This document shows, in pieces, positions 13,827 to 58,301 of a stretch of 64,000 bases of DNA (its first letter is position 1; each line of letters opens with the position of its first letter). The position numbers and the translations under genes were made by a program. The notes beneath the pieces are model-generated. The model did no database searches. It was not told the origin of the DNA and worked only from the letters and a program-made list of their open reading frames with translations. The DNA comes from a virus, in the IMG/VR virus record IMGVR_UViG_2974600762_000001, positions 39,688-103,687 of that record; one strand, written 5' to 3'.

Positions 13827-13856
13827 TTGACAAAGGGTACTATAACTGGTATCCTT
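13827..13856 (+). promoter_or_regulatory. hairpin-in-spacer promoter
   Basis: TTGACA AAGGGTACTA taac TGGTATCCTT. Confidence 0.75.
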
Positions 13857-13895
13857 ATATACATAAAAATATTATTAGGAAGAAGGAAAATAATA

Positions 13896-14378
13896 ATGAC
13901 AAATCAAAAGACAGTTTATAACGGTGGAGGATGGTTTAATAGTGTACAGTGTAAACTATTATCTGATGGTAGAGAAGCTTTAATTGCTAACCCTACAATT
14001 GACTTTGACAACTCATATGTACCATTAGAGCATCAATATAAGGACTTAAATGTGGAACTTAACCCTGAATTAATGCAAGACCAAGAATGGCAAGCTGGTA
14101 CCTATTTAGGGGATGTATCAGGAATTTCTGGCACAGACTTAGTGGTAGCTTTTATTGACCCTGATGAAGTAGACCCCGGGACTACATTTGAAATGGGGTA
14201 TGGTATGGCTATTCATAAGCCAGTAGTGGTTGTCATTCCAGATAAAGCAGAAGGAGAAGTTACCGAACTTAATCTAATGGTAGCCAAAGGATGCACCCAA
14301 GTAATCACAATGAGTGAATTAGCTACTTTTAACTTTAACCTTATTCCAGCTAAGCCATATTTAGGTAAAGTATTTTAA
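13896..14378 (+). CDS. ndt: nucleoside 2-deoxyribosyltransferase
   Basis: Y.GGGWF, PLEHQ, D....D.VVA, DPGTTFEMGY..A.HKPVVVV, LNLM motifs. Confidence 0.9.
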   Translation: MTNQKTVYNGGGWFNSVQCKLLSDGREALIANPTIDFDNSYVPLEHQYKDLNVELNPELMQDQEWQAGTYLGDVSGISGTDLVVAFIDPDEVDPGTTFEMGYGMAIHKPVVVVIPDKAEGEVTELNLMVAKGCTQVITMSELATFNFNLIPAKPYLGKVF

Positions 14379-14460
14379 ATAAATATTGACAAAGCATAGC
14401 AGAAATTGTAATTTAAATTTTAGAATTGTTAAATACTATCTGAGAAAGGAACTTTAGATA

Positions 14461-15471
14461 ATGATAATTAGAATTGAAGTACCAAATAAACTATTAATAG
14501 AACATTTTAAGGATACCTTGAATAAAATAGGGCAAGTGTGTTTAAGGGACTACTATGGTAATCCTAAGAGTATTTATGTAAGCAGTGACACCTGTTTACA
14601 GTTGCATACAGGTTTTAGCTACTATAGTCCTTTTGGGGCGTATAGGGTCATCGAGGATAACAGTAAAGAGTCAGAACAACGTTCAATAGTTACTGTGACT
14701 ATAAGTGACCGTTCTTACCGTGACAATCTTTATAACTACTGGGTTAAGGGCAAAACGACTGTAAAGCTTGATGACTTTTTGAATAAAATATCTAGTAATA
14801 GTCAAGATAGCACTGACACTAGGATAGAAGAGGATTATCCAAAATACTTTGTTGAGCTAACTTTTGAGATTCCTTATGGTGGTAAAAAATTATATTCAAA
14901 GTTCTGGAGCTTTCCAAATGGTTTAAAGTTAAGTCTTTCAGATAGAACTAGAATTGCTCTGGAGCATGACATTGGAGAAGAACTAAGCAATTCGGACTAT
15001 CCTGAATTAATCCAGCTAGGTGATGACGAAGACTTTAATGAGGTACTTGATATTCAGCTATATTATGACAAAGACTGTAAAAAGTTCAGCAACGTCATTG
15101 CACATTGGCCAGTGGAGTCTATTAGTGAGTATCTAGTTGAGTCCAAGCTGCATAAAAGCTTACTAGTTATGTTAAAAGGACATGATGGCAGCTGGTTTCC
15201 TAGTCATGGGAAGACAAAACTAGACAGTGAAGACCTAGAATATATCTTAAGAAACTATCCTAAAATTGATAGTACATTTAAACTAACTTTTAATATTATG
15301 TCTAATGAAAAATATGGTGGCCCGAATAGAGTCAATAAGTTTATTAAGAACCGAAAGGAAATTATGATAGCTGATTCACAACACTACGTCGAAGAGATGA
15401 CTGGTTATACTGAGGATGACGGGAAAATATATGCTGAGCCATCCTTAATCAGTGACTTAATGTTTTACTAG
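14461..15471 (+). CDS. hypothetical protein
   Basis: 336-aa ORF with SD AAAGGA. Confidence 0.7.
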   Translation: MIIRIEVPNKLLIEHFKDTLNKIGQVCLRDYYGNPKSIYVSSDTCLQLHTGFSYYSPFGAYRVIEDNSKESEQRSIVTVTISDRSYRDNLYNYWVKGKTTVKLDDFLNKISSNSQDSTDTRIEEDYPKYFVELTFEIPYGGKKLYSKFWSFPNGLKLSLSDRTRIALEHDIGEELSNSDYPELIQLGDDEDFNEVLDIQLYYDKDCKKFSNVIAHWPVESISEYLVESKLHKSLLVMLKGHDGSWFPSHGKTKLDSEDLEYILRNYPKIDSTFKLTFNIMSNEKYGGPNRVNKFIKNRKEIMIADSQHYVEEMTGYTEDDGKIYAEPSLISDLMFY

Positions 15472-15487
15472 AAGGAGACCGAGAAGT

Positions 15488-15685
15488 ATGGATAAGTTTA
15501 ATATTGTTTCAATTAGTAATTTTGATTTAGATACCTATAACGAGCACATAGTTGCAAAGGACGTTCCTATTTATTACGCAAAAGTTATCGTTGAAGCTTT
15601 CAATAAAAAGTTTTCAGGGCCAGACTGTGCAGACTATTTCGTAATTAAACCAACAGACTATGTACCACATGTGTTTGAGCCCTAG
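15488..15685 (+). CDS. hypothetical protein
   Basis: SD AAGGAG. Confidence 0.65.
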   Translation: MDKFNIVSISNFDLDTYNEHIVAKDVPIYYAKVIVEAFNKKFSGPDCADYFVIKPTDYVPHVFEP

Positions 15686-15713
15686 CTGACAGCTGATAAG
15701 GAGGGACTAAATT

Positions 15714-16001
15714 ATGAAGTCTTTTATGACGGCCAAAGAAGCTATTACTACTAGTAATAACAACCGGAATAAAAAGATAGCATACTATTATTTCGAAATT
15801 TCTAAAGACAGAATTGTTAAGAAAATCGAGCGTGCAATAACTAAGACAGTGCTTAATGGAGAGATGAGTTGTCGTGTTGTTTGCTGGAAGACACCTAGTG
15901 ATAAAAGAGATGAAGCTATTAAAACATATTTTAGTAATCTAGGATATAACATTGATTCTTCAAACGGTATATATTACATTAGGTTTCAGCCTAGGAGATA
16001 A
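15714..16001 (+). CDS. hypothetical protein
   Basis: SD AAGGAGG. Confidence 0.65.
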   Translation: MKSFMTAKEAITTSNNNRNKKIAYYYFEISKDRIVKKIERAITKTVLNGEMSCRVVCWKTPSDKRDEAIKTYFSNLGYNIDSSNGIYYIRFQPRR

Positions 16002-16041
16002 TAGTATTGGTATATCTAGGTAAAGTGTTTTAAATAATTAG

Positions 16042-16071
16042 TTGACAAAGCATATCAGAAATGGTATGCTT
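16042..16071 (+). promoter_or_regulatory. hairpin-in-spacer promoter
   Basis: TTGACA AAGCATATCA gaaa TGGTATGCTT. Confidence 0.8.
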
Positions 16072-16096
16072 TTATTATAGAAAGAAGGAATAAAAT

Positions 16097-18490
16097 ATGA
16101 GAGTCATTTATTGCACAGTAGGAATGCCAGCATCCGGCAAGAGTACATTTTTGAAGCATTCACCATTAAAAGATTATGTGGTTGCTACTGATGAGTTACG
16201 TAAACTGGTATCAACACCACAAATTAATTATACACTTGACACTGATGCAATTACTATTGGGCTAAATAATGATATTAATAAGAAAGTTTGGGATATGACT
16301 TATACACTGGTTGAGGATAGAATGAAGAACGGTGAAACTATTGCAGTTGATGCAACTTTTCTGTTTAAGTCTCCCTTCTCAACTATTAAAAAGTTATGTA
16401 AGTTATACAATTATCGGTTAATTACGATTGATTTTATTAATACCGGATTAACTTTTGAACAATTATTAGACCGAAATAATAATATTGACCGAGTGAAAGA
16501 GCACAAGGATGTATCTTATGATACTATGAAGAAGTTCTGGAATCGCCAGCAGAATATCACTGTCCCTAATAACTGGAACATGATTAAACCAGAAGAGCTA
16601 GAACAATCATTAGCTTGGCACTGCTCCAATGTTGACAACTATAAACAAGTTATTGTTATCGGGGATACTCATAGTGGCTATACAGTGTTAACTGCTGCTC
16701 TTAAAGACAATGACCCGATTGATAACCCTGATAAGTTATATGTTTTCTTAGGGGACTACTTAGACCGAGGAACTAAACCAGCAGAAACATTCAAGTGGCT
16801 ATATGAACGCAAGGATTTACCTAATATGGTTCTGCTACGAGGTAACCATGAGTATCATTTAGAACACCACTACCAAGGACTACCCATCACTAATAGTGGT
16901 TCTCGCAAGGAAACAATCCCAGCATTATATAAAGCAGGCATCACTAAGGAAGATATTCGTAAGTTTGTCCGTAAGCTACAAGACGTTTACTATATTGAAT
17001 ATCATGGTCAAAAGTATCTATTCAGCCATGCTGGGGTTCCAACGACACCTGAGTTTTTAAAAACAACCACGGGCATTCCACTATTTGTGGATACTAAAAT
17101 TGGCTTAGAAGAAATTAACCTATTAGATGAATCTGTATTTACTAAAGGTATTGGTGGTTTTAAGATTAATCTAGAACAATATAATCATGATTATAACAAC
17201 GGAGTGGATTACCCAATTCAAATTCACGGCCACCGCAATGTTCAACTTAACAAGGCTAAGTGGGGTAATACCATTAACCTAGAGCAACAAGTAGATGCTG
17301 GGGGTAACCTAGCCATGGTAGTGCTAACAGGCGATACTCATGAGATTAAGCTGGTTAAAAATAACGACTTTGACTATGCCTACGCCACTGACAAGGCCGA
17401 TATTGATTTAAATAGTCTTAGCAATGAACAGGTTAAAGACATCATGGAAAGAACACAGGGCATTCGACAAAAACGTGACGCTAGTGGGTTAACCGCTAAT
17501 AACTTTACCCCGGAAGTGTTTTATGGGGATACCTTTAATAAGTTTAGTGTTACTGCTAGAGGATTATTTACTGATAGCAAGGGAAATGTACAACTACGTG
17601 GGTTTAATAAGTTCTTTGTTCTTGACCAGCGACCTGAGACTGAACTTGGTACAGTGCTAAAGAATGCTAAATATCCTGCGGTTGCTGCTAAAAAGTATGA
17701 CGGTCACTTATCATTGCTAGGGTGGTACGATGGGAAGCCCCGTATGTTCACGAAGAGTGGCTCAACTGAGTTAGCTAAGGTTGACTGGCACAACTTTAGT
17801 CGGTACTTGCACGATATTGATAGGTATACATTCATGGAAGACTGGCTAAAATTGCATCAGAATAAGACTATCTTAATGGAATCTCTTAATGCAGCCGAAG
17901 ACGCTCACTTGGTAGATACTCATGGTAAGGTTGGTTTTAGATTGCTAGAGGTAATTGAAAATAAGTATGAACCCACCGGTGGACATAATTTCGTAGATAC
18001 TAACTTGCTAACCGCATTATTGGGGGAAACTGACAAGTGCTACTTGAAGATGGCTGAACGTTATGAAATTGCTAATGATAAGGAATTAATGGAACTAATT
18101 AATAGTTCTAAACAAACTAACTACAAGTTACCATTGGGTAGCTACTATCAAGGGATTGACCCTACTACTTATGAAGGTTGGGTACTGACGTTTGCTAATG
18201 GGTTTAAGGTTAAGGTTAAAAATGCCTATTTCTTAGCTATTAAAGAATTTCGTAGTAAGCTAGAAGTGGCCCTAGATAACCCAATGTACTATAGTGATGC
18301 AACTAACTGGGATAATTTAATTGAACGTAGTTATAATGTCCAGTCTAAGCGATTACTAAGAGCTGTTGCTGGTAAGGAGTTTGCGCCTTTCTTTGAAAAT
18401 CGAGATAAAATGGGTAATATTGACCTACCACAGGCTTTGAAAGCTGCTGGGCTAGACCATAATAAGATTGTTGAAATTATTAGTGATTAA
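16097..18490 (+). CDS. trifunctional RNA repair enzyme: polynucleotide kinase + metallophosphoesterase + RNA ligase
   Basis: P-loop GMPASGKST with DE.R; GDTH, GDYLDRG, RGNHE, HAG, HGH phosphoesterase motifs; ligase KYDG, EG.V, KVK motifs. Confidence 0.9.
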   Translation: MRVIYCTVGMPASGKSTFLKHSPLKDYVVATDELRKLVSTPQINYTLDTDAITIGLNNDINKKVWDMTYTLVEDRMKNGETIAVDATFLFKSPFSTIKKLCKLYNYRLITIDFINTGLTFEQLLDRNNNIDRVKEHKDVSYDTMKKFWNRQQNITVPNNWNMIKPEELEQSLAWHCSNVDNYKQVIVIGDTHSGYTVLTAALKDNDPIDNPDKLYVFLGDYLDRGTKPAETFKWLYERKDLPNMVLLRGNHEYHLEHHYQGLPITNSGSRKETIPALYKAGITKEDIRKFVRKLQDVYYIEYHGQKYLFSHAGVPTTPEFLKTTTGIPLFVDTKIGLEEINLLDESVFTKGIGGFKINLEQYNHDYNNGVDYPIQIHGHRNVQLNKAKWGNTINLEQQVDAGGNLAMVVLTGDTHEIKLVKNNDFDYAYATDKADIDLNSLSNEQVKDIMERTQGIRQKRDASGLTANNFTPEVFYGDTFNKFSVTARGLFTDSKGNVQLRGFNKFFVLDQRPETELGTVLKNAKYPAVAAKKYDGHLSLLGWYDGKPRMFTKSGSTELAKVDWHNFSRYLHDIDRYTFMEDWLKLHQNKTILMESLNAAEDAHLVDTHGKVGFRLLEVIENKYEPTGGHNFVDTNLLTALLGETDKCYLKMAERYEIANDKELMELINSSKQTNYKLPLGSYYQGIDPTTYEGWVLTFANGFKVKVKNAYFLAIKEFRSKLEVALDNPMYYSDATNWDNLIERSYNVQSKRLLRAVAGKEFAPFFENRDKMGNIDLPQALKAAGLDHNKIVEIISD

Positions 18491-18504
18491 CTTAAAATAA
18501 AGTA

Positions 18505-18534
18505 TTGACAGAGGGTACCAGAGATGGTATCCTT
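18505..18534 (+). promoter_or_regulatory. hairpin-in-spacer promoter
   Basis: TTGACA GAGGGTACCA gaga TGGTATCCTT. Confidence 0.8.
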
Positions 18535-18558
18535 TTAGTATAGAAAGAAGGAAGTAAA

Positions 18559-18834
18559 ATGAAATTTGATAAGAATAGTACTACTAAATATAAAGATAAT
18601 CAAGCTTGGGAAGTTGGGGATTTGATTTATGGTGCTGAGGATGAGCTATATCTAGTGGCTGGAGTAGCTGATGTAGGTAACAGAGTAAGTGGGAATATTT
18701 TCTATACTTTGGTTAACCTAGAAGACGGTTATAGCTCAAATAGCTATAAAACTATTGCGGAGTTACAGCATCATACTGGTGATGCTAACGACAGGATTCT
18801 TACTGGGACTTTTAAATACGAGGCTGACAAGTAA
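18559..18834 (+). CDS. small beta-domain hypothetical protein
   Basis: W.VGDL....LY.V....Y.LVNL..G pattern shared with 35664..35948. Confidence 0.65.
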   Translation: MKFDKNSTTKYKDNQAWEVGDLIYGAEDELYLVAGVADVGNRVSGNIFYTLVNLEDGYSSNSYKTIAELQHHTGDANDRILTGTFKYEADK

Positions 18835-18913
18835 GTTAGTTTAATAGAACTAAAAAGTATCCGTATTACACTCAAACCATATCTTTTATGAGTAAAAAAA
18901 GGAGAAATAGTTT

Positions 18914-19303
18914 ATGGAACAACTAGACCTGTTTGCAACTACAACTACAACAACCAGTACAACTACTAGGAAAGTTACCCGTAAGCGTAAACGTAAGGTT
19001 AAGATAACTACCACCACTACCACTACACAGCCCATCAATCAGCTAATTGTTGATGAAGAGTCAAAGCTAAAAGAACTGTTATCTCAGCCCAAACAATTCG
19101 ATGCTCTGAGAGGGGCTATAAGCTGGTTTAAGTCCAAACAGTATACTTGGTACTGTAACACGGTAGAACGTCCTGAGCGAGCTCTGAGGGGTCTTCAAAG
19201 CCATTTGAACGTGTCTGACGATAAATTTTATAAGATGTTGCTTAATGACAAGGTAATGGTAGGGTTAGCAAAAGGAACCTATTTGATTTATTTTAAAAAA
19301 TAG
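18914..19303 (+). CDS. hypothetical protein with N-terminal poly-Thr/basic tract
   Basis: TTTTTTSTTTRKVTRKRKRKVKITTTTTTTQ; SD GGAG. Confidence 0.7.
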   Translation: MEQLDLFATTTTTTSTTTRKVTRKRKRKVKITTTTTTTQPINQLIVDEESKLKELLSQPKQFDALRGAISWFKSKQYTWYCNTVERPERALRGLQSHLNVSDDKFYKMLLNDKVMVGLAKGTYLIYFKK

Positions 19304-19304
19304 T

Positions 19305-19334
19305 TTGACACAGGATACTATTGATGGTATCTTG
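19305..19334 (+). promoter_or_regulatory. hairpin-in-spacer promoter
   Basis: TTGACA CAGGATACTA ttga TGGTATCTTG. Confidence 0.75.
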
Positions 19335-19362
19335 TATACATACAAAGAGGAGGAAACAAATT

Positions 19363-20046
19363 ATGTATGTTGATGATTTCATCAAGGAAGTAAAAGAGCT
19401 ATCAACTAGATACGATGTAGAGGTAACCGATGGTCAAGTAGATGTATATTACTCACGCCGGAAACATGCTAGATACCCTAAGTATCACCAAGTATTAACT
19501 GTCCCCTTACAAGCACAGTATACTTTTAGTCGTAGAATTGGGCTAGATGATTTTGAAGCACTGCCCTTTAGTCACAAGCTTTACATGCTAGGGGCAGAAC
19601 TAGCTATGACTCCACTGGATGAGCGTACTCCTGAGTCTTATAAGATAGCACGGCAAAATAAAGAAATGAATTGTCTCATGCAACACTCCAAGCACGCTCT
19701 AAGAGAGGCTAGGGTAGCGGAGCACAAGGCTAATAAGCCTAAATTTGTTGAGCTTCAGCCATTACCAAATTACACTGGTATTAATGATGCCACGGGTGAA
19801 CCAATCTATGTCGGGGATGTCGTTGAAAGAGTGCTTGATATGAGGAATGCATACTCAGCATTAGAAAACCGGGATAAAGAAAAGTTTCCGGACTTTGATA
19901 AGATGGGTGAACCATTTAAGGTTAAGCGTGATTGCTACTTGTACGGCCATTGGATTGCTAAAAGTGTAGCTGATGGCGATAAATTTGGTGTAGATGGGTT
20001 ACACTTTGGTAAAGAATTACTAAAAGTAAATGGAGGAAACAAATAA
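19363..20046 (+). CDS. hypothetical protein with partial YopX-like C-terminal motif
   Basis: YTGINDATGEPIYVGDVV; N-terminus resembles 45753..46199 (FIK.V ... A.TP..ER). Confidence 0.65.
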   Translation: MYVDDFIKEVKELSTRYDVEVTDGQVDVYYSRRKHARYPKYHQVLTVPLQAQYTFSRRIGLDDFEALPFSHKLYMLGAELAMTPLDERTPESYKIARQNKEMNCLMQHSKHALREARVAEHKANKPKFVELQPLPNYTGINDATGEPIYVGDVVERVLDMRNAYSALENRDKEKFPDFDKMGEPFKVKRDCYLYGHWIAKSVADGDKFGVDGLHFGKELLKVNGGNK

Positions 20047-21164: not shown

Positions 21165-21179
21165 AATTTAGGATAAGTG

Positions 21180-21209
21180 TTGACAAGGGATATCAGAGAT
21201 GGTATCCTT
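21180..21209 (+). promoter_or_regulatory. hairpin-in-spacer promoter
   Basis: TTGACA AGGGATATCA gaga TGGTATCCTT. Confidence 0.8.
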
Positions 21210-21235
21210 TTAATATAGAAGGAAGGTATTAGTTA

Positions 21236-23984: not shown

Positions 23985-23996
23985 ACTATATTAAGC

Positions 23997-24026
23997 TTGA
24001 CAATTAGGGTACCAGTATGGTATCCT
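23997..24026 (+). promoter_or_regulatory. hairpin-in-spacer promoter (18-nt spacer variant)
   Basis: TTGACA att AGGGTACCA gta TGGTATCCT. Confidence 0.7.
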
Positions 24027-24058
24027 TATACCATGGAAAAAGAAAGAAGGAGTTAAGC

Positions 24059-24535
24059 ATGAGTGCTGAAACTTGCGCATATTTAAACACTGATTTAACA
24101 AGTCTATTAGAATATCTTATTAATAAATACAATTTGGTTGCAGAAGATGACTGGGAAATTAGTGCCGAAGATAAAAACCATAATCCAGTTAGTATTGATG
24201 AGGAAGATAACCGACTTACTTATGATAATTCGACTATATATGATATTATGCACTATTCATATCATGGTTTTGTATCCCTGAATAAAGCGGATGGCGGGCG
24301 AGCATTGTTTGTTTTAGAGTGTAGTTTAGACGACGATTGTACTGTTAAAGGCTTCAAACCATTATGGGATGATGATGCGGGGTGTATCTATGTTAGCCTA
24401 GCTCACTATGGTAGCTCTGTTAGCATTATCAAGGACTTAGCTTATGAGTTCGGTGGTCTTATTGATGAGGACGATTGTGATGATGAACCCTACTACTATG
24501 TTAGTCCAGCACTAGACGATGCAAAAGACAACTAG
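24059..24535 (+). CDS. acidic hypothetical protein
   Basis: SD AAGGAG before ATG 24059. Confidence 0.7.
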   Translation: MSAETCAYLNTDLTSLLEYLINKYNLVAEDDWEISAEDKNHNPVSIDEEDNRLTYDNSTIYDIMHYSYHGFVSLNKADGGRALFVLECSLDDDCTVKGFKPLWDDDAGCIYVSLAHYGSSVSIIKDLAYEFGGLIDEDDCDDEPYYYVSPALDDAKDN

Positions 24536-24541
24536 TAAACT

Positions 24542-24568
24542 AAAAGGGTACTAATATGGTATCCTTTT
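24542..24568 (+). terminator. same hairpin family, no TTGACA upstream; likely terminator
   Basis: AAAAGGGTACTA ata TGGTATCCTTTT, 7 nt after a stop codon. Confidence 0.6.
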
Positions 24569-24586
24569 AATATGGGGGCGAGCATC

Positions 24587-25509: not shown

Positions 25510-25540
25510 AAAGCAATCCTATATAAGGGTTGCTTTTGCT
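25510..25540 (+). terminator. intrinsic terminator
   Basis: AAAGCAATCCT-atata-AGGGTTGCTTT. Confidence 0.8.
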
Positions 25541-30208: not shown

Positions 30209-30266
30209 CTATAAAATAGTATAATGCTATGATACACATGTAACGTAATCAAGGAACAAAATAAAT

Positions 30267-34130: not shown

Positions 34131-34227
34131 TTTAAAATAAGTTATAAAAAGTCTTGACATAGAATAGCAGTAATGTTATTCTATATACATAAGTTAAAAC
34201 AATAAATAAGAAAAGAGATAATACATT

Positions 34228-36947: not shown

Positions 36948-37061
36948 TTATGATAAGTAACTATGGACTAGTCTATCATGGCTAGTCTTTTTTGTCTATT
37001 GACAATCCATATAAAGGCTGGTATACTTTAATTATTGAGAAACAAGTAAATATCTCAAAAA

Positions 37062-37077
37062 TGTTTCACGTGAAACA
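37062..37077. promoter_or_regulatory. parS: parS site
   Basis: TGTTTCACGTGAAACA, 15 nt upstream of the -35 box at 37092. Confidence 0.85.
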
Positions 37078-48775: not shown

Positions 48776-48834
48776 ATTAAACGCCTCTTTCTTTTCTATA
48801 ATAAAATTATATCATATATGACATGCTTTGTCAA

Positions 48835-49254: not shown

Positions 49255-49287
49255 TTTAGTTAACCTCCTTAGTTGATTTAATAATAA

Positions 49288-49317
49288 AAGCATACCACTA
49301 AAGGTATGCTCTGTCAA
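49288..49317 (-). promoter_or_regulatory. hairpin-in-spacer promoter
   Basis: Minus strand TTGACA GAGCATACCT ttag TGGTATGCTT. Confidence 0.75.
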
Positions 49318-51622: not shown

Positions 51623-51653
51623 GCAACTACCCTTCTCCCCTTTTCTATAATAA

Positions 51654-51683
51654 AAGCATACCATAGTTGATATGCTTTGTCAA
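51654..51683 (-). promoter_or_regulatory. hairpin-in-spacer promoter
   Basis: Minus strand TTGACA AAGCATATCA acta TGGTATGCTT. Confidence 0.75.
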
Positions 51684-51687
51684 TACT

Positions 51688-51957
51688 TTATTTATAAACT
51701 GTTAATACTTGGTAGGCGCCTTTTGAGATAACTAATGGTGAGCTTAAATGAAGATAATTTGTACCATCCTTTAGTTCATCCTTAGTAAACTCTCTAGATA
51801 CCCAAATAAGGTGCTGTTCGTTTTCTAGCGTGCTGAACACAACCAGCTTAATGCCAGTTAATAAATTGTTATTGTTAAAGTCAACCTTAAAAGGGATAGC
51901 AATTACCCCAGTGTTTCCATCACTACGCCTTGAAGCTAACTCCGTTTTATCATTCAT
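51688..51957 (-). CDS. hypothetical protein
   Basis: SD GAGG. Confidence 0.6.
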   Translation of the reverse strand: MNDKTELASRRSDGNTGVIAIPFKVDFNNNNLLTGIKLVVFSTLENEQHLIWVSREFTKDELKDGTNYLHLSSPLVISKGAYQVLTVYK

Positions 51958-51970
51958 TACGATAACCTCG

Positions 51971-52930
51971 CTAAATCATATTCTTAACTTTTAGTGCTAC
52001 ATACTTACGAGCTTGTGCCCGTGATACCCGAATTAATTGTTTAATCTCTGCTGGTAACTCCGGCGATTCTTCAATAGCATCCAGCAGCACCTCATTCGCT
52101 ACCTTATCAGTATTGCCATTACGCATCCAGTCAAATGACAACTCACTAGGAAGTTCGCCCTCATCCTGACCTTCTAATACCTTCTTAGATACTCGGGCTA
52201 AGGTTACATTATTATTAATCCACTCAGTTAAGCTAATAGACTCTGAGTGTTCCTTAACGTGCTTAGATTCTTTAAAGGTAGCATTGACTAGCTTAATCCG
52301 CAAGGGGCCTGTAGTAGTCTGTGAAGTAGGTACTGTCTTGCTTAAATCAGTAACTACAATACCTTCCATATTACCACTGGCTGAGTAATTAGACTTATCA
52401 GAATATTTAGCTTGAATCTTAGGTAAGTCGTTTAACCCGATTCCAGTAACGTTATCCTCTAATAAGGGTGCCATTTCAATCCCATCTACACCGTATAATA
52501 CATCCTTATATAGCTTTTCAGCCTCATGGTATCCTAGATACTTATGAGACGATTTATCATACACGTCAAACAGATACCACTTGTGATAGTATTCATCCTT
52601 ATACTGTACTCGGTGCTTAGTTAGCCATTCACCAAACACAATGTAGTTATTTCCAATGTGTTTTAAATACTCTGCATTATCTTTAACAAATCCATAGAAG
52701 CCGTTCAGTTTCTTGTCAGCGTCTAGTTCTCCTTTATGAGAGTAGGCTTTAACCTCACCATCAAGTACCTCTACAGACGCATTAGAGCCATCCAACTTTT
52801 CAGTAATGACTAAAGTGTCTTCTGGCTCAATAGTAATAACTTCTTTATTTTCATTTGCTAATTTATTTTCAAACAATTGTTCGTTTTCATAAGCGTTAAT
52901 TTTTTGGAATTTACGCATGGCATCCTTCAC
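51971..52930 (-). CDS. RNA ligase, Rnl2 family
   Basis: TEKLDGSN, FGEW, YLFDV, EGIVV, KLVN..FKE motifs. Confidence 0.85.
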   Translation of the reverse strand: MKDAMRKFQKINAYENEQLFENKLANENKEVITIEPEDTLVITEKLDGSNASVEVLDGEVKAYSHKGELDADKKLNGFYGFVKDNAEYLKHIGNNYIVFGEWLTKHRVQYKDEYYHKWYLFDVYDKSSHKYLGYHEAEKLYKDVLYGVDGIEMAPLLEDNVTGIGLNDLPKIQAKYSDKSNYSASGNMEGIVVTDLSKTVPTSQTTTGPLRIKLVNATFKESKHVKEHSESISLTEWINNNVTLARVSKKVLEGQDEGELPSELSFDWMRNGNTDKVANEVLLDAIEESPELPAEIKQLIRVSRAQARKYVALKVKNMI

Positions 52931-52938
52931 CTACTTTT

Positions 52939-53223
52939 CTAGCACAAGTCTACTGAAATCAACATTAATCCAGATTCATCGAACTCTTTTACAAGCTCCC
53001 CCATAGTGGCACCTTCTGGCAACTCAGCCTCAATTAACTTGTGCCAAGCTAAACTAGAAGGAATTTCTTTACAATCAACTTCATAGTCACAGTCATCAAT
53101 AACATCTTCGTAGTACTTAGCAATAGCGTACTCTTTATTATCAGCAGCTATTAAAGCATAATATTCGTTCTCTGGTACCTTAAATTCATAATATTTATGT
53201 TTAATGTCTGTTGTCATCTTCAT
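52939..53223 (-). CDS. acidic hypothetical protein
   Basis: YYALIAA....AI..Y pattern. Confidence 0.65.
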   Translation of the reverse strand: MKMTTDIKHKYYEFKVPENEYYALIAADNKEYAIAKYYEDVIDDCDYEVDCKEIPSSLAWHKLIEAELPEGATMGELVKEFDESGLMLISVDLC

Positions 53224-53341
53224 TAGTAGTATTCCCTTCCTTATTATCTATATAGTGATATTTAGCATCAAGCCAATTCTCCCAAGCAAGCTCAGACATA
53301 ACCAGTGCTACAATGATAACAATCATTGTTGTATAGCTCAT
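53201..53341 (-). CDS. 46-aa membrane peptide (not in ORF track)
   Basis: MSYTTMIVIIVALVMSELAW...; SD GGAGG. Confidence 0.5.
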   Translation of the reverse strand: MSYTTMIVIIVALVMSELAWENWLDAKYHYIDNKEGNTTNEDDNRH

Positions 53342-53352
53342 AGTGTGCCTCC

Positions 53353-53655
53353 TTATTTATCAAGCAAACCATTAACATAATTTATATTTACCTTTAGCTG
53401 GTCAATATATTTTTGTATGCGGATTACTTTGTCCTTGTTCTTATAAATAACCTCTTCTTTAGTATATGAATTTAGGGCATCTTTTAAACTCGGATAGTAC
53501 CCAACAGTAATTGGGCTAGGTTTTTCAATCTTAGTCTTAGAGTCTAGCGTTGTCATTACCTTACCATCATTATCTAGTCTGCGCTGTAGCATCCAATTAC
53601 TGTGGTTGGCAACAACAACTTGGTAGTTTCCGTCAATATCAATAGTGGTAGCCAT
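53353..53655 (-). CDS. hypothetical protein
   Basis: SD GGGAG; GYYPSLKDAL motif. Confidence 0.65.
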   Translation of the reverse strand: MATTIDIDGNYQVVVANHSNWMLQRRLDNDGKVMTTLDSKTKIEKPSPITVGYYPSLKDALNSYTKEEVIYKNKDKVIRIQKYIDQLKVNINYVNGLLDK

Positions 53656-53956
53656 TATTAAGCATCTCCCTTTCAATTTGTTTACGGTTAACAGTATCAA
53701 CAGTATAACTTCCGTTAATGACAACTAGCATCCCACCAAACATACTCATTAACTTATTGGCAACTTCAATTTCACTGTCAGTCAGTGACTTTAATCTAAT
53801 TGCATCCAGCGGGTTACTAGATAGATATTCAGGAGCCAGCGAAGATGTATAAATCGCTTGCATCTCAGATAAGTATCCTCCCGGGAACTTGATAGCATGT
53901 CTCATAATCGCACTCTTATCATAGTGAGAATCGTTAAATTCATTCATTGTCATCAC
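53639..53956 (-). CDS. hypothetical protein
   Basis: Coupled ORF. Confidence 0.6.
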   Translation of the reverse strand: MMTMNEFNDSHYDKSAIMRHAIKFPGGYLSEMQAIYTSSLAPEYLSSNPLDAIRLKSLTDSEIEVANKLMSMFGGMLVVINGSYTVDTVNRKQIEREMLNNGYHY

Positions 53957-54179
53957 TCTTTTCCAATAGCTTAATCCATCGTTCTAAATACCATTTAGCC
54001 TTGTTCAAATCTTCTATCTTGTTTTTCTTATAAGGTGCTCGCAAGATATACTTAACAACGTTGAAGAATAGGCCGCCTTCAAACGGCTTAATGGGTGCTC
54101 CTTCTAGTTGGTCTTTAATAATATCAATTACTTCTAACTTTCCGTGATTATAATGCTCTGGGTGGTTTACCATGCTCAT
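53940..54179 (-). CDS. DUF3310 (gp1.7-like nucleotide kinase) family protein
   Basis: VNHPEHY..G.LEVID.I, NVVKY..RA..K...EDL.KA.WYL. Confidence 0.85.
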   Translation of the reverse strand: MSMVNHPEHYNHGKLEVIDIIKDQLEGAPIKPFEGGLFFNVVKYILRAPYKKNKIEDLNKAKWYLERWIKLLEKSDDNE

Positions 54180-54182
54180 GAC

Positions 54183-54431
54183 TTATTCTCCTTCTCCAGA
54201 TTCAATAATACTTGTCATTGCTTCAATTTTGTTTTTTAGTGAATTGATACTTAGCGCTTGCTCTCGCTTAGAATCACTACTTCGTGGTCGATGACGTTGT
54301 ACATCTACTAATTGCCACTCAGTCAATTTTAGTAGTACCTTAGCTTGACCAATATTGTCAAAAACTACTTGACCATTTTTAATCAAACTGTTTTCATATT
54401 TAGCCATATAGTCCATATAGTTAATTACCAT
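54183..54431 (-). CDS. hypothetical protein
   Basis: Coupled ORF. Confidence 0.6.
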   Translation of the reverse strand: MVINYMDYMAKYENSLIKNGQVVFDNIGQAKVLLKLTEWQLVDVQRHRPRSSDSKREQALSINSLKNKIEAMTSIIESGEGE

Positions 54432-54652
54432 TTGTTTGTGTCCCTCTTTCGGTTGTGAGTTACAACTAGTGTAATACTGTTTGGAATGGTTACTAGCTCA
54501 GTTATTACTATTAACTCCCAGACGAAGTCAGTTTTCATAAATAGTAGAAATAGGACTAACATAATAATTAAATTAATACCAACAACCTCTCCTAATAATG
54601 ATAAAGGCCCCTGATACCTTTTGCGCTTATACTTCTTAATATATTTATCCAT
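54425..54652 (-). CDS. small membrane protein
   Basis: Two hydrophobic segments. Confidence 0.6.
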   Translation of the reverse strand: MDKYIKKYKRKRYQGPLSLLGEVVGINLIIMLVLFLLFMKTDFVWELIVITELVTIPNSITLVVTHNRKRDTNKW

Positions 54653-54654
54653 AA

Positions 54655-55002
54655 TTAGTACCCGTATACATTACTGATAAACAGCTTATTTGACAGATTT
54701 ACTCGGCTTTCATTAATATTCTTTAAGTAGTAGTCCTTGATAGTAGATAATAATGATTCTAAATTTTCAAGTTTGTCAAAACGAGTTACAGCCGAACCCA
54801 GCATACGGTGGTTGTAAACACTGACTTGCACTTTATCTTTTGATTTGTAGACTTTTAACCCTTCATAATTAGGGTCAATACTCAAAGCATCTGATAGGAA
54901 AGCACATTGTGTAGTCTCATCAATTGTTAACCCGGTTGTTTCCAGATACCGCTTGCTTTCCTTACCGTTAACCGATTTTGCTAATTTACTTAATTTAATC
55001 AT
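54655..55002 (-). CDS. hypothetical protein
   Basis: SD AGGAG. Confidence 0.65.
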   Translation of the reverse strand: MIKLSKLAKSVNGKESKRYLETTGLTIDETTQCAFLSDALSIDPNYEGLKVYKSKDKVQVSVYNHRMLGSAVTRFDKLENLESLLSTIKDYYLKNINESRVNLSNKLFISNVYGY

Positions 55003-55068
55003 ATTAATATATCTCCTTTTATCTTTAATAAGTTAATATTATCACTGTTATTTATTGGTGTCAACCTT

Positions 55069-55236
55069 TTATCTTAATGTTTCAATCAAAAACATTATTA
55101 ATACAAACAGTAGAATAGCCACTAATACGAAGGCTAATCCACATATCATAGCAAACATTAGGGAACCCCATCCTAGCTGTGCAAACAAAATAATTAAGGC
55201 AAGCCATAATATTGCGATAATCGTTACAGTCTCCAT
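55069..55236 (-). CDS. 55-aa membrane peptide (not in ORF track)
   Basis: METVTIIAILWLALIILFAQLGWGSL...; SD AAGGA; behind hairpin promoter. Confidence 0.55.
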   Translation of the reverse strand: METVTIIAILWLALIILFAQLGWGSLMFAMICGLAFVLVAILLFVLIMFLIETLR

Positions 55237-55268
55237 GTGTATTTCCTTCTTTCCTTTTGTATATTAAA

Positions 55269-55298
55269 AAGGATACCATTTCTGGTATCCTATGTCAA
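55269..55298 (-). promoter_or_regulatory. hairpin-in-spacer promoter
   Basis: Minus strand TTGACA TAGGATACCA gaaa TGGTATCCTT. Confidence 0.8.
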
Positions 55299-55302
55299 CA
55301 TA

Positions 55303-55617
55303 TTATCTAAATGTTTTTAAAAGTATTTTATCAATCATCTGTGGAGAAGGTTTATCATCTAGTATTCTGACAATTACATATGGTAGCTGTCTACGCTTTT
55401 CAATGTTTGGAATATTAAGGTTAGCTCTAAAGGGGTCTAAGCATAAATCATAATAAGTTTCTGTACAATAGAACACCTTCTCTAATTCATCTTTATCATC
55501 ACTATAGTTAGTTGGTAAATCATTTACATAGGTATCAAATGGTTCAATCTTGTCAAAATAAGCTCTTAATGCTGGCAATTCCACATCGCCAGTAGTTAAT
55601 ATTAAAATAGGTTTCAT
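55303..55617 (-). CDS. hypothetical protein
   Basis: SD GGAGG. Confidence 0.65.
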   Translation of the reverse strand: MKPILILTTGDVELPALRAYFDKIEPFDTYVNDLPTNYSDDKDELEKVFYCTETYYDLCLDPFRANLNIPNIEKRRQLPYVIVRILDDKPSPQMIDKILLKTFR

Positions 55618-55630
55618 CACTGGACCTCCT

Positions 55631-57427
55631 TTACTTAACTTCAAATTTTTGGTCTTTATAATATTTAACACGTTGTTTAGCCTGATTAAATAAATATTCA
55701 GCGTTCCTATCAATGATATCAAATATATATACTTCATGCTTATCTGCTGATATACGGAGTAAACGGCCAATTCTTTGAAGAGTCTGAACAAATGATTTTC
55801 CGGCACTAGCATAAATCATATAACGAATATTTGGGATGTCGATACCTTCGTCCATCACTTTAGTACCAATAAGAACTTTTAATTCTCCAGAGCGAACCCG
55901 GTTTAATATGTCGGTGCGCTCCTCTGTAGTATTTTTCCCTTGAATGAAAGCATACTCGGTATCAGTTTTTCCTAAATATTCAGCGATGTTCTCTCCGTGT
56001 TCAATAGAGTTAACTACAATAAGTACAGCTCCATTATCAAGGCTAGACAACTTACTTCCTAGTTCAGCTATCAGCTTATTCCTGTCTTCATTATTAGTTA
56101 TACCTATTTGGTAAGTCAGCTGGTATTTAACTAGACTCTCTTGGTTGCTTGGGGTCCCTTTTGGAATGCTACGATTGACTTGTTTTTCTAAATCGACTGG
56201 TTTATTAAAGTCAACTAGCTTGATATGAGGTCTTGCAGATACCCCTTGCTCAATCATTTGGTGATTATCAATATCATATATAATATCCCCAAGAACGCTT
56301 TTAATCTTAGCCATCTCTACCTTTTTACCTTTATCTAAGGTACCGGTCAACCCAATTCTCAAACGAGCATTAGGTAAGAATTTAAAGGTTTCCTGATATG
56401 AGTCAGATGAAGCGTGTTGGCATTCGTCAACCATAACAATCTTTACATGTGATAAGTATTCTACTGCCACATTATATTTGTCAAATCCTTTGGCGTTCTT
56501 CTTAGAAATTAATTTATTGTATCGCTTTTTAAAGTTTTCAAAATATTTGATGACAGCTTTATCAGAATCCAAAGAAACTGCAAGTGAAGCTAGCTCTTGT
56601 TTGTCATCTATTTCATACTTATACTTAGGTTTAAAATTCTTAGCGTATCCCTTTAATGACTGCCTAGGATTAACCGAATCAAGAATATCTTTAGCATACA
56701 CAGTTGCCATTCGCTTTAGTAACTTGTCTTTGGCAGAAGTTAGCTTAACAGCATCCTCGGGGTTCTTAAGGGCTTTATTAAGCGTCTGAATAGTAGCACA
56801 GGTAACTTGCTTAAGGTCACGATTACCGTCTCCCCATAGACCCACAGGCACTCCTAAATACCCTTCCATATTCTTGTGAACTTGATTCATAATAGAAGTA
56901 TTAGGTGCAATAAACAAAACATTGTCAGTGCTATCTAATTCTGGTAAAACTTTAGCAATAGATGTAATAGAAATTAATGTCTTACCGGCGTTAGTTGCAG
57001 CTAGTACAATCCCTGTTTGATTAGCATAAACAGACTTAATTGCTTCTAGCTGATAATCACGAATAGTTACTTTTCTAACCCCTTCACCCTGCATCACAAC
57101 TTCTTCTGGTAGAGATTTGCTAGGTGCAATCTTTATTCCTCTAACATCCTCTAATGAATACTTGATATAGGCATTCTTATTCTGCTCCCGCTGTAATAAC
57201 AATAGTAAGTCACTTACTAGCCCCGTAGGTACTAAGTTATTATCTAAATCACATAAGTTAACCCGACCATCCCATGTATGATACTTTCTAAAAGAAGCCT
57301 TCCTAAACCGGTTAGGGTCTAATGGGTCTAACTCTTCATGGATTCTATCTTTTATATATTTTATAAATCTATCAGTTTCGGTATCAAAATAAATTTTGGC
57401 ATAGCTATTACCTATGGTTATCTTCAA
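55631..57427 (-). CDS. superfamily 2 DEAD/DEAH-box DNA helicase (UvsW-like)
   Basis: RDYQ, ATNAGKT, DECQH, GLTGT, EGIDIP, QRIGR motifs. Confidence 0.95.
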   Translation of the reverse strand: MKITIGNSYAKIYFDTETDRFIKYIKDRIHEELDPLDPNRFRKASFRKYHTWDGRVNLCDLDNNLVPTGLVSDLLLLLQREQNKNAYIKYSLEDVRGIKIAPSKSLPEEVVMQGEGVRKVTIRDYQLEAIKSVYANQTGIVLAATNAGKTLISITSIAKVLPELDSTDNVLFIAPNTSIMNQVHKNMEGYLGVPVGLWGDGNRDLKQVTCATIQTLNKALKNPEDAVKLTSAKDKLLKRMATVYAKDILDSVNPRQSLKGYAKNFKPKYKYEIDDKQELASLAVSLDSDKAVIKYFENFKKRYNKLISKKNAKGFDKYNVAVEYLSHVKIVMVDECQHASSDSYQETFKFLPNARLRIGLTGTLDKGKKVEMAKIKSVLGDIIYDIDNHQMIEQGVSARPHIKLVDFNKPVDLEKQVNRSIPKGTPSNQESLVKYQLTYQIGITNNEDRNKLIAELGSKLSSLDNGAVLIVVNSIEHGENIAEYLGKTDTEYAFIQGKNTTEERTDILNRVRSGELKVLIGTKVMDEGIDIPNIRYMIYASAGKSFVQTLQRIGRLLRISADKHEVYIFDIIDRNAEYLFNQAKQRVKYYKDQKFEVK

Positions 57428-57812
57428 CAGATGATGCCTCCAATTCTAATCCTAAATCATTAATGATAGCTGTAGCTTGACTATCTGATAAGTATAAAAC
57501 TTTATCCATCAGCTTCCTCTTAAGATTGATGCGTTTAGCTACCATTAAATTTAGCCCAATATACGTTCGTGCCGAGCTGTACTTATCTTGCTCAAACTTA
57601 TAACTCTCAAAAGGCCAATTATTATAAATTTCCTGTTTGTTAACACTTTGGCTTACTATTAATGGAACTATTATATTAACTATCAAATCCTCAGGGTCCG
57701 AGGAAGCTCCTATAAATTTATCTGATAGTCCATCTCGATTACAGTATAGTAATTTATTAGGAGTATCTGTAAAATAATACTCACCTGCATGGTCTTTATA
57801 TAAATAAAACAA
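57408..57812 (-). CDS. hypothetical protein
   Basis: TTG 57812 with GGGGTG SD (ATG 57830 is an alternative). Confidence 0.6.
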   Translation of the reverse strand: MFYLYKDHAGEYYFTDTPNKLLYCNRDGLSDKFIGASSDPEDLIVNIIVPLIVSQSVNKQEIYNNWPFESYKFEQDKYSSARTYIGLNLMVAKRINLKRKLMDKVLYLSDSQATAIINDLGLELEASSVEDNHR

Positions 57813-57901
57813 CTTGGCTACACCCCACATTTTAATCAATACTATATTATAACACAGTATTAGCAGGTTTGCAACCAAATTGTTTAATTTTAACTAAATT
57901 T

Positions 57902-58240
57902 TTATAAAGCTAAGCATACTTTTAAAGCATGTTCCATCTTACTTTCTTCCTCTTTGCTAATATGACCAATATATTCAACTAAATCAGCTTTATTAACGGT
58001 AACAATAGCTTCAGTTAGCCCCAAACTTTTCTTAGGTGTTTCTGTGACAATAAAGTGTGTTGGCAACGGAACTTTGTGTTGGGTCGTTAGTGGTACTACA
58101 ATTGTGTTGGGGCTATGCAGGTTTCCTAAATTATTTTGCACAACTACACAAGGCCGTCTCCCAGATTGGATATGGCTCCATGATGGTTGTTCTGGTAAAT
58201 TAATGTAGTAAATATCCCCACGTTCTAAATCGTTATTCAT
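57902..58240 (-). CDS. mazF: MazF/PemK-family endoribonuclease, no adjacent antitoxin
   Basis: RGDIYY.NL, QSGRRPCVVVQN..GN.HSPNTIVVPLTT, E.I.TV.K..L..YIG motifs. Confidence 0.9.
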   Translation of the reverse strand: MNNDLERGDIYYINLPEQPSWSHIQSGRRPCVVVQNNLGNLHSPNTIVVPLTTQHKVPLPTHFIVTETPKKSLGLTEAIVTVNKADLVEYIGHISKEEESKMEHALKVCLAL

Positions 58241-58271
58241 TATGATAACTTCCTTTCTTTTTCTATAATAA

Positions 58272-58301
58272 AAGGATACCATTTCTGGTATCCTTTGTCA
58301 A
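58272..58301 (-). promoter_or_regulatory. hairpin-in-spacer promoter of mazF
   Basis: Minus strand TTGACA AAGGATACCA gaaa TGGTATCCTT, perfect 10-bp stem. Confidence 0.8.

What the first reader, a model, noticed from the sequence alone, without database searches (positions are those of the whole stretch)
13827..58301. A promoter class with a covarying RNA-type hairpin built into the -35/-10 spacer
Seen: TTGACA + 10-nt arm + 4-nt loop + TGGTAT(C/G)CTT at 13827, 16042, 18505, 19305, 21180 (+) and 49317, 51683, 55298, 58301 (-), with variants at 23997 and 24542 and degenerate copies at 14386 and 48834 (the latter has a plain TG-TATAAT). The right arm is the extended -10 (TG-N-TATCCT/TATGCT, 17-nt spacer). 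Arms covary (GGATAC/GTATCC versus GCATAC/GTATGC). Internal mismatches are G-T type on the sense strand, loops are often GNRA (gaaa x3, gaga x2), and a T-run usually follows. Inference: the selection is on a single-stranded structure, probably a combined terminator-promoter cassette that stops upstream readthrough and restarts transcription. Alternatives are a DNA hairpin switch or a palindromic operator defining a middle regulon (NDT, Pnkp-Rnl, TelA locus, MazF).
Basis: partly seen in the sequence, partly recalled or inferred. Interest (0 to 1): 0.72.

Follow-up and report, generated by a model that had tools for sequence, protein, structure and literature searches.

The report
Promoter-terminator hairpin cassettes, Lactobacillus phage
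A large Lactobacillus plantarum phage places, after many genes, a compact signal in which a host-type promoter and an RNA stop hairpin share the same bases; this is the design of the 'PeSL' cassettes known from T4-like phages, found here in a phage of a Gram-positive host.

Summary
The window has 9 exact copies of TTGACA-N14-TGGTATSCT (0 in shuffles). Variants occur at 23997, 24542 and 34154, and decayed copies at 14386 and 48834. The 142.6-kb genome (Herelleviridae, about 90% identical to Harbinvirus phages) has 15 copies.

In each copy a 10-bp stem with a 4-nt loop pairs the upstream spacer with the extended -10. Across 59 distinct copies from six phages, 95.8% of stem cells pair (86.2% when shuffled). 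Four stem positions show compensated changes, and mismatches are almost all G:U on the sense strand. Stability holds as RNA but halves as DNA. A T-run follows 35/46 hairpin promoters but only 4/68 plain ones. Every cassette sits 2-41 nt after the stop codon of a co-directional gene.

Best reading (about 0.6): a composite sigma-A promoter and intrinsic terminator/attenuator. It stops read-through transcripts and restarts transcription at nearly the same base. No expression data could be obtained.

This is a new member of a known kind: the PeSL cassettes of T4-like phages (Arbiol 2010; Comeau 2014). This scan has reported PeSL-like cassettes on other DNA before. Specific here are the fixed register (right arm = TGnTATnCT), covariation reaching into the -10 hexamer, and spread across unrelated L. 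plantarum phage families.

The parts
13827..13863 (+). Hairpin promoter upstream of the nucleoside deoxyribosyltransferase gene. Sequence: TTGACA, AAGGGTACTA-TAAC-TGGTATCCTT. The tail is TATATACATA, so the U-tract is poor.
   Evidence: (dG -11.9, z -2.45)
14386..14425 (+). Decayed half-cassette. TTGACA, the left arm AAGCATAGCA and the GAAA loop remain; the right arm and -10 are lost.
16042..16080 (+). Hairpin promoter (TATGCT type, T-run follows) upstream of the Pnkp/RNA ligase gene. The same cassette occurs as a single copy in the siphophages Satyr and P1.
18505..18543 (+). Hairpin promoter (TATCCT, GAGA loop, T-run follows).
   Evidence: dG -17.8, z -4.47
19305..19343 (+). Hairpin promoter with -10 TATCTT and two sense-strand G:U pairs. 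The tail is GTATACATA.
21180..21218 (+). Hairpin promoter (TATCCT, GAGA loop, T-run follows) at the head of the locus that ends in telA.
23997..24036 (+). Variant with an 18-nt spacer, a 9-bp stem and a 3-nt loop. Homology with Semele and Iacchus ends just upstream of it, at 23992.
24542..24575 (+). Hairpin AAAAGGGTACTA-ATA-TGGTATCCTTTT with an extended -10 but no TTGACA. Homology with Semele resumes inside it, at 24550.
   Evidence: (z -3.47)
34154..34192 (+).
   Evidence: z -3.60
48796..48834 (-). Former hairpin cassette. The left arm is partly kept and the -10 has changed to the consensus TGATATAAT. The T-run tail is retained.
49279..49317 (-). Hairpin promoter (TATGCT, 6-nt loop, T-run follows).
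51645..51683 (-). Hairpin promoter (TATGCT, T-run follows).
55260..55298 (-). Hairpin promoter (TATCCT, GAAA loop, T-run follows).
   Evidence: z -5.17
58263..58301 (-). Hairpin promoter with perfect 10-bp arms, a GAAA loop and a T-run, upstream of the MazF-like gene.
   Evidence: (z -3.92)

Best explanation
Each cassette is a compact intergenic unit with these parts in order: the stop codon of the upstream gene inside an A-rich stretch, a perfect sigma-A -35 (TTGACA), a 17-nt spacer, an extended -10 (TGnTATnCT), a T-rich tract, a short leader, and the SD and ATG. The first 10 spacer bases are complementary to the extended -10.

RNA polymerase arriving from the upstream gene transcribes a 10-bp, 4-nt-loop hairpin followed by UUUUAUUAU. 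That is an intrinsic terminator or attenuator. Polymerase that starts at the cassette's own promoter begins about 7 nt after the -10, beyond the hairpin, so it is not terminated. Upstream messages therefore end about where the next message begins.

Shown here: the anatomy; base-pair selection on the sense strand; the link between hairpin and T-run; and the position after co-directional genes.

Inferred: that the promoters fire, that the hairpin terminates, and how efficiently.

In the third of copies with a poor U-tract, the hairpin more likely attenuates weakly or caps the 3' end of the upstream RNA. The cassettes also behave as portable modules at which genes are swapped, as described for PeSLs.
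For: Anatomy and copy number:
- 9 exact copies in the window and 0 in shuffles.
- 15 copies in the genome. Each of five relatives has 8-15.

Base-pair selection:
- Alignment A1 holds 59 distinct copies. 95.8% of stem cells pair versus 86.2% when shuffled (0/500). The covariation score is 0.366 versus 0.179 (0/500). Slid registers pair at 34-50%.
- Pair s4:h4, which is the -9 base of the hexamer, is G:C 25, C:G 20 and A:U 12. It is also T:A in LpeD.
- One orthologous site shows the series A:T, then G:T, then G:C, with the -10 becoming TACCCT.
- Within orthologous sites, at least 25 changes keep a standard pair and 6 break one. Four of the 6 are at terminal pairs. The 4 loop columns carry 13 changes.

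RNA rather than DNA:
- 55 G:U cells versus about 5 A:C cells.
- Mean RNA dG is -12.6, -11.6 and -11.7 kcal/mol with 0, 1 and 2 wobble pairs. The DNA values are -8.8, -6.2 and -4.4.
- Hairpins dominate the fold of 61-81-nt contexts, with z from -2.4 to -5.2 for 10 of 12.

Terminator signature and context:
- A T-run follows 35/46 hairpin promoters and 4/68 plain promoters (Fisher 2e-15, copies not independent).
- All 15 cassettes lie 2-41 nt after a co-directional ORF.
- The hairpin plus -10 arm is coupled to TTGACA in 15 of 16 cases.
- Where the hairpin is lost, the -10 moves towards TATAAT or TATACT. This suggests the stem holds the -10 away from consensus.

Precedent:
- PeSLs have the same architecture, with promoter and terminator activities shown by lacZ fusions (PMC2839356).
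Against: - There is no transcript evidence.
- The simple terminator scan did not call these sites. The stems are only moderately G+C-rich, at -9 to -14 kcal/mol.
- Six of 15 genome copies have tails such as TATATACATA with few U, yet they keep and even compensate the hairpin. Termination therefore cannot be the whole story.
- Most plain promoters of the same phage have no terminator at all (2 of 17). Insulation is not a general rule in this genome.
- Part of the strand asymmetry of wobble pairs is expected simply because the right arm is frozen by -10 function. Under neutral left-arm transitions I expect about 70:30; 22:2 was observed, p about 0.01 by my own calculation.
Confidence: 0.6

Rival explanations
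1. The RNA hairpin is selected mainly as a 3'-end cap or processing mark on upstream messages, giving protection from 3' exonucleases, possibly after endonuclease cleavage just downstream. On this reading it is not a terminator, and the promoter overlap only saves space.
For: - The sense-strand RNA signature is the same as for the main reading.
- Six of 15 copies keep the hairpin without a good U-tract.
- Those copies carry UACAU 4-5 nt after the -10, and the phage encodes a MazF-like RNase. UACAU is the MazF/EndoA site in Bacillus and Staphylococcus (from memory).
Against: - The hairpin is strongly associated with a T-run (35/46 versus 4/68). A pure 3' cap would not need this.
- The specificity of the phage MazF is unknown.
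Confidence: 0.13
2. The 22-bp palindrome over the -10 is an operator for a dimeric phage or host regulator that switches this promoter set on or off as a temporal class.
For: - Near-perfect two-fold symmetry overlaps the -10.
- The copies form a set of promoters distinct from the plain TATAAT promoters of the small-ORF early region.
Against: - Symmetric double changes at four stem positions, including all four Watson-Crick types at one of them, are not expected for half-site recognition.
- Mismatches are G:T on one strand only.
- Single copies sit in unrelated siphophages.
- No copy was found in any Lactobacillaceae genome among 185,579 species representatives.
Confidence: 0.07
3. The hairpin forms in single-stranded DNA. 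Candidates are the lagging-strand template, or a recombination or replication signal. The GC skew changes sign where gene orientation flips.
For: - The sense strand is probably the lagging-strand template on both arms: GC skew flips with gene orientation near 42 kb.
- Homology breakpoints fall in or next to cassettes, and once inside the hairpin.
Against: - DNA stability drops to about -4 kcal/mol in conserved variants with two wobble pairs, while RNA stability is unchanged.
- The association with a T-run has no DNA-level rationale.
- Breakpoints are just as frequent at plain promoters: 9/17 versus 9/15.
Confidence: 0.08
4. Supercoil-driven cruciform extrusion in the spacer and -10 tunes promoter strength. 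This has been done with an engineered promoter (Horwitz and Loeb 1988, from memory).
For: [quoted passage not shown]
Against: - The arms are only 10 bp.
- Wobble pairs on the sense strand are A:C mismatches on the other strand, so a cruciform would be destabilised in most copies.
Confidence: 0.03

Closest known systems
PeSL (promoter-early stem-loop) cassettes of T4-like phages RB49/phi1, PST/T4 and nt-1/KVP40 (Arbiol et al. 2010, PMC2839356; Comeau et al. 2014, PMC4122927)
   Same: - The order of parts is the same: stop codon of the upstream gene in an AT-rich stretch, a sigma-70-type -35/-10, a stem-loop, then SD and ATG.
- In PeSLs the stem-loop is most often between the boxes or overlapping the -10, and it contains G-T pairs.
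- Both are proposed to stop upstream transcription and restart it.
- Both sit at gene gain, loss and replacement junctions. One junction here lies inside the stem-loop.
   Different: - The phage family (Herelleviridae) and the host (Gram-positive) are different, and there is no sequence homology.
- There is one fixed register, with the right arm equal to TGnTATnCT, instead of five positional subclasses.
- The stems are A/T-rich with a T-run rather than polyG/polyC.
- Covariation reaches into the -10 hexamer.
- The cassettes are not confined to ORFan arrays; they serve NDT, Pnkp/RNA ligase, MazF and tRNA genes.
- Breakpoints are no more frequent than at plain promoters.
- Function has not been tested.
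Intrinsic (Rho-independent) terminators of Firmicutes
   Same: A stem-loop of about -10 to -14 kcal/mol is followed directly by a U-rich tract and lies just after a stop codon.
   Different: - It is superposed on a promoter.
- The stem is lower in G+C than the phage's stand-alone terminators, for example 12133-12149 and 25510-25536.
- A third of the copies have poor U-tracts.
Hairpin promoters of phage N4 virion RNA polymerase, and single-strand promoters such as F plasmid Frpo (from memory)
   Same: A hairpin is built into a promoter.
   Different: In those systems the hairpin is the DNA form recognised by the polymerase. Here the boxes are ordinary duplex sigma-A elements, and the pairing signature points to RNA.

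Membership tests
PeSL-type composite promoter/terminator cassette | Intergenic unit running from the upstream stop codon in an A/T-rich stretch to the SD and ATG of the next gene | tested here: met
   The stop codon lies 2-41 nt before the -35, often inside the conserved aaaTAAgtg. The SD and ATG lie 25-45 nt after the -10.
PeSL-type composite promoter/terminator cassette | Strong host sigma-70/sigma-A type promoter (-35, -10) | tested here: met
   By sequence only: perfect TTGACA, a 17-nt spacer, a TG extension and TATnCT. Activity was not tested.
PeSL-type composite promoter/terminator cassette | Stable stem-loop within or next to the promoter, commonly between the boxes or over the -10 | tested here: met
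   A 10-bp stem pairs the spacer with the extended -10. Folding z-scores reach -5.2, and covariation is well above controls.
PeSL-type composite promoter/terminator cassette | The stem-loop terminates or attenuates upstream transcription, and the promoter fires early | not testable with these tools
   Only indirect support: association with a T-run.
PeSL-type composite promoter/terminator cassette | Cassettes mark gene insertion, deletion and replacement junctions between close relatives | tested here: inconclusive
   - 9/15 cassettes have a homology break within 40 nt, which is 31 of 336 HSP ends against 5 expected by chance.
- Plain promoters show the same rate, 9/17.
- One clear module swap has junctions at two cassettes.
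PeSL-type composite promoter/terminator cassette | Occurs in T4-like myoviruses (the lineage in which the family was defined) | tested here: not met
   The host phage is Herelleviridae, Harbinvirus-like. It is an analogue by design, not a homologue.
Intrinsic terminator | G+C-rich stem directly followed by a U-tract | tested here: inconclusive
   - Nine of 15 copies have at least 5 T in the 8 nt after the -10.
- The mean tail score is 3.8 versus 2.4 for plain promoters.
- The generic scan did not call these sites, and 6 copies have weak tails.
Palindromic operator of a dimeric regulator | Half-site bases conserved for protein contact, with no requirement for complementarity | tested here: not met
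   Compensated changes, strand-specific wobble pairs and free loops.

The most novel reading that the evidence does not exclude
Because the terminator and the promoter share the same nucleotides, upstream RNAs would end within a few bases of where the next RNA starts. The cassette might then work as a relay: polymerase that has just released its RNA is re-used at the overlapping promoter, so each gene's output is reset to a fixed level. The cassette may also be a host-tuned, portable expression unit exchanged between unrelated L. plantarum phage families. Near-identical 50-60-nt copies occur in Herelleviridae and in Tybeckvirinae siphophages whose flanking genes are unrelated or only 36% identical.
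Probability: 0.15. Interest if true: 0.6.

Novelty: new member of a known kind. Interest (0 to 1): 0.35.

Why it matters
The finding extends the composite promoter/terminator ('PeSL') design from T4-like phages of Gram-negative hosts to Herelleviridae and siphophages of Lactiplantibacillus.

It is an unusually clean case of two signals written in the same bases. The middle of the -10 hexamer is free to vary only together with a spacer base 12-16 nt upstream. That explains why these promoters carry TATCCT, TATGCT or TATTCT instead of TATAAT.

Practically, it gives a transcription-unit map for poorly annotated L. plantarum phages. It also offers short, insulated expression cassettes that could be tested in lactic acid bacteria.

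It is not a new principle.

Tried and rejected
- The LP65 genome paper (PMC523202) is not held. The Harbinvirus paper does not describe these motifs. A Kayvirus transcriptome paper describes only plain early promoters and separate GC-rich terminators.
- The generic promoter/terminator scan calls the promoters but not the hairpins as terminators.
- A scan of viral contigs on the -35 plus TGGTATSCT alone gave 124 mostly unrelated hits, and about 105 have no hairpin. The hairpin is therefore not a by-product of that -10. A few unrelated contigs (L115, L161, L056, L055 family, L166) have sporadic single look-alikes.
- My first genome contigs pattern had the loop one base too short and was wasted. 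The corrected scan found 8 hits, none in Lactobacillaceae, against about 2 expected by chance (my own estimate).
- The Enterococcus herellevirus VRE9_3, hit at 76% identity, has only plain promoters.
- Breakpoint enrichment is not specific to hairpin cassettes.
- Plain promoters rarely have their own upstream terminator, only 2 of 17. The idea that every promoter here comes with a terminator was dropped.
- An outer helix pairing the -35 region with the T-rich tail appears in some folds, but it is not conserved in the commonest class and was dropped.
- Co-transfer of the cassette with the MazF-like gene into siphophage P1 was rejected, because the proteins are only 36% identical.

Full report
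**Origin of the window.** The window is bases 39688-103687 of a 142,567-bp phage genome with direct terminal repeats. It is about 90% identical over long stretches to the Lactobacillus plantarum myophages Bromius, Bacchae, Semele, Iacchus and Dionysus (Herelleviridae, Harbinvirus). It is more patchily related to LP65. Genes run on the + strand up to about 42.5 kb of the window and on the - strand beyond it. The GC skew flips at the same point.

**Observation.** TTGACA-N14-TGGTATSCT occurs 9 times in the window and never in 100 shuffles.
- A looser search adds 19305 (TGGTATCTT) and 34154 (TGTTATTCT with a matching left arm).
- The whole genome has 15 such promoters. Four lie outside the window.
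- The listed variants are as described. 23997 has an 18-nt spacer. 24542 is a hairpin plus extended -10 without TTGACA. 14386 keeps only the -35, the left arm and the loop. 48834 has changed its -10 to TGATATAAT and lost the stem.
- The same phage also has plain TTGACA-N17-TATAAT promoters without a hairpin, mostly in the small-ORF region at 29.6-39.6 kb.
- These cassettes are not annotated as regulatory features in the Bromius or LP65 records.

**Anatomy.** Counting spacer bases s1-s17 and hexamer bases h1-h6, s1-s10 pair with the first base after the hexamer, then h6-h1, then s17-s15. The loop is s11-s14. The right arm is therefore exactly the extended -10, TGnTATnCT.
- The A-rich stretch before the -35 often contains the stop codon of the upstream gene (aaaTAAgtg).
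- All 15 cassettes lie 2-41 nt behind a co-directional ORF.
- Two tail types follow the -10. TTTTATTATAGAAA-like tails occur in 9 of 15 copies. (T/A)ATATACATA or TAATACATA tails occur in 6 of 15.
- Downstream genes include nucleoside deoxyribosyltransferase, a Pnkp/RNA ligase, a MazF-like protein and several proteins of unknown function. Outside the window, one cassette precedes a tRNA cluster.

**Is the pairing selected?** I fetched the whole genomes of five relatives. Each Harbinvirus has 11-15 hairpin promoters and LP65 has 8.
- On an alignment of 59 distinct copies, 95.8% of stem cells form a standard pair against 86.2% after shuffling (0/500). The covariation score is 0.366 against 0.179 (0/500). 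Registers slid by 1-3 columns pair at only 34-50%.
- Pair s4:h4, which is base -9 of the hexamer, is G:C 25, C:G 20 and A:U 12. In phage LpeD it is also T:A, with hexamer TATACT.
- LpeD adds C:G at s5:h3 (TAGTCT) and G:C at s8:s17.
- At one orthologous site the same pair runs A:T (Bacchae), G:T (this phage), G:C (Semele, Iacchus). The last step turns the -10 into TACCCT.
- Counting states inside 13 orthologous groups, at least 25 changes keep a standard pair. Of these, 22 go through G:U and 3 are fully compensated.
- Only 6 changes break a pair, and 4 of those are at the outermost or loop-closing pair. The four loop columns collect 13 changes.
- Whole-cassette copying between sites could explain the paralogue-level G:C versus C:G split. 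It cannot explain these within-site steps.

**Which molecule pairs?**
- Wobble cells are 55 G:U against about 5 A:C.
- Part of that bias is expected because the right arm is frozen by promoter function. Neutral left-arm transitions would give about 70:30. The observed 22:2 within orthologues gives p of about 0.01 (my own calculation).
- Independently, stability computed as RNA stays constant: -12.6, -11.6 and -11.7 kcal/mol with 0, 1 and 2 wobble pairs. As DNA it falls from -8.8 to -6.2 to -4.4.
- In 61-81-nt RNA contexts the hairpin is the dominant structure. z ranges from -2.4 to -5.2 in 10 of 12 copies.
- These results favour an RNA made by read-through from the upstream gene. Transcripts from the cassette's own promoter would start after the hairpin.

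**What does the hairpin do?**
- A T-run follows the -10 in 35 of 46 distinct hairpin promoters but in only 4 of 68 distinct plain promoters of the six phages (Fisher 2e-15, copies not independent).
- The hairpin plus -10 arm is coupled to TTGACA in 15 of 16 cases.
- Where the stem is lost, the -10 moves to TATAAT or TATACT.
- Together this fits an intrinsic terminator or attenuator superposed on a sigma-A promoter. The stem holds the middle of the -10 away from consensus, and the perfect -35 and TG extension compensate.
- Several points count against a pure terminator. The generic scan does not call these sites. Six copies have weak U-tracts yet keep the stem. Most plain promoters of this phage have no terminator at all.
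- For the weak-tail copies, a 3'-end cap or processing role is a live alternative. They carry UACAU at the predicted start site, and the phage encodes a MazF-like RNase.

**Other rivals.**
- An operator for a dimeric regulator does not fit the compensated changes, the one-strand wobble pairs or the free loops.
- It also does not fit the single copies in unrelated siphophages: Satyr, Maenad, P1, P2, Gut-P1 and ATCC 8014-B2.
- A scan of one genome for each of 185,579 prokaryote species found no copy in Lactobacillaceae.
- A cruciform is disfavoured by the strand asymmetry.
- A single-stranded DNA role is not excluded, because the sense strand is probably the lagging-strand template on both arms. 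It does not explain the T-run, and it fits the energies poorly.

**Distribution.**
- The specific pattern occurs in IMG/VR only in these L. plantarum-group phages and a few metagenome fragments.
- An Enterococcus herellevirus has only plain promoters.
- Hits selected only on the -35 plus TGGTATSCT in unrelated viral contigs almost never have the hairpin.
- The cassette shared with the siphophages is 86-93% identical over 50-60 nt. The flanks do not match, and the nearby MazF-like proteins are only 36% identical.

**Shuffling.**
- Homology with relatives breaks within 40 nt of 9 of the 15 cassettes. That is 31 of 336 HSP ends against 5 expected by chance. The rate is the same at plain promoters, 9 of 17.
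- One clean module swap was seen. In Semele and Iacchus the unit formed by the 23997 cassette and ORF 24017-24535 is replaced by a unit of cassette plus TnpB-type transposase.
- In that swap, homology ends at 23992 and resumes at 24550, inside the 24542 hairpin.
- The half-cassette at 14386 also looks like a recombination scar.

**Comparison with what is known.**
- The design matches the PeSL cassettes of T4-like phages. Those have an upstream stop codon in an AT-rich stretch, a sigma-70 promoter, a stem-loop, then SD and ATG.
- In PeSLs the stem-loop is most often between the boxes or over the -10, with G-T pairs. Promoter and terminator activity were shown by lacZ fusions, and recombination occurs at the cassettes (PMC2839356, PMC4122927).
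- I found no description of such cassettes for Herelleviridae or Lactobacillus phages in the held literature.
- This scan has already reported PeSL-like cassettes on other DNA, including a promoter-in-hairpin type in a Felix O1-like phage.

**Verdict.** This is a new member of a known kind, of moderate interest.

Noticed in passing
L043:17543-19000 (Semele 97543-99000), compared with window 23992-24550: A TnpB-type transposase gene (N-terminus MYKAYKIRIYPN...) with its own hairpin promoter replaces the ORF at window 24017-24535. The junctions lie just before one cassette and inside the next hairpin. Iacchus has two such copies that are 85% identical.
   Followed up: partly
window 13860-13864, 19337-19341, 34186-34190, 61399-61403 (-); genome 106902 and 108492: Promoters with weak U-tract tails carry TACAT (UACAU) 4-5 nt after the -10, which is at the predicted start site. 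Read-through RNA would contain the full motif but the promoter's own RNA would not. There may be a link to the phage MazF-like gene.
   Followed up: partly
L173:2860-2905 (-) and L173:4450-4495 (-) (genome 106902 and 108492, outside the window): Two TATTCT-type hairpin promoters are followed by a conserved leader of about 45 nt (taatacataagcaaatgacattacgtaaatcc...). The first lies about 650 nt upstream of a cluster of 8 tRNA genes. Bromius has a third copy of this unit on the other arm.
   Followed up: partly
window 12133-12196: A conventional terminator (GAGCCTGATGAGGGCTC followed by TTTTT) lies 19 nt before a plain TTGACA-N17-TATGAT promoter. A similar pair sits at 36970-37027. These are the non-overlapping version of the same idea.
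   Followed up: yes
window 30240-30262 and 37055-37077: The palindrome tgtttcacgtgaaaca sits in the leaders just after two plain early promoters. It is also noted by another first-stage finding as parS-like.
   Followed up: no
genome 34718 (window -4969, outside the window): A plain TATAAT promoter whose 16-nt spacer is itself a small hairpin, AGCATA-AAAAG-TATGC(T). This is a hairpin between the boxes rather than over the -10.
   Followed up: no
window 63405-63477 and 63675-63747 (-): Two tRNA genes (Rfam RF00005).
   Followed up: no
window 18502-18541, 21177-21216, 55262-55302 (-): In some copies the -35 region (GUAUUGA) can pair with the tail (UUAGUAU or UUAAUAU), extending the hairpin to about 17 bp. 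This is not conserved in the commonest class.
   Followed up: partly
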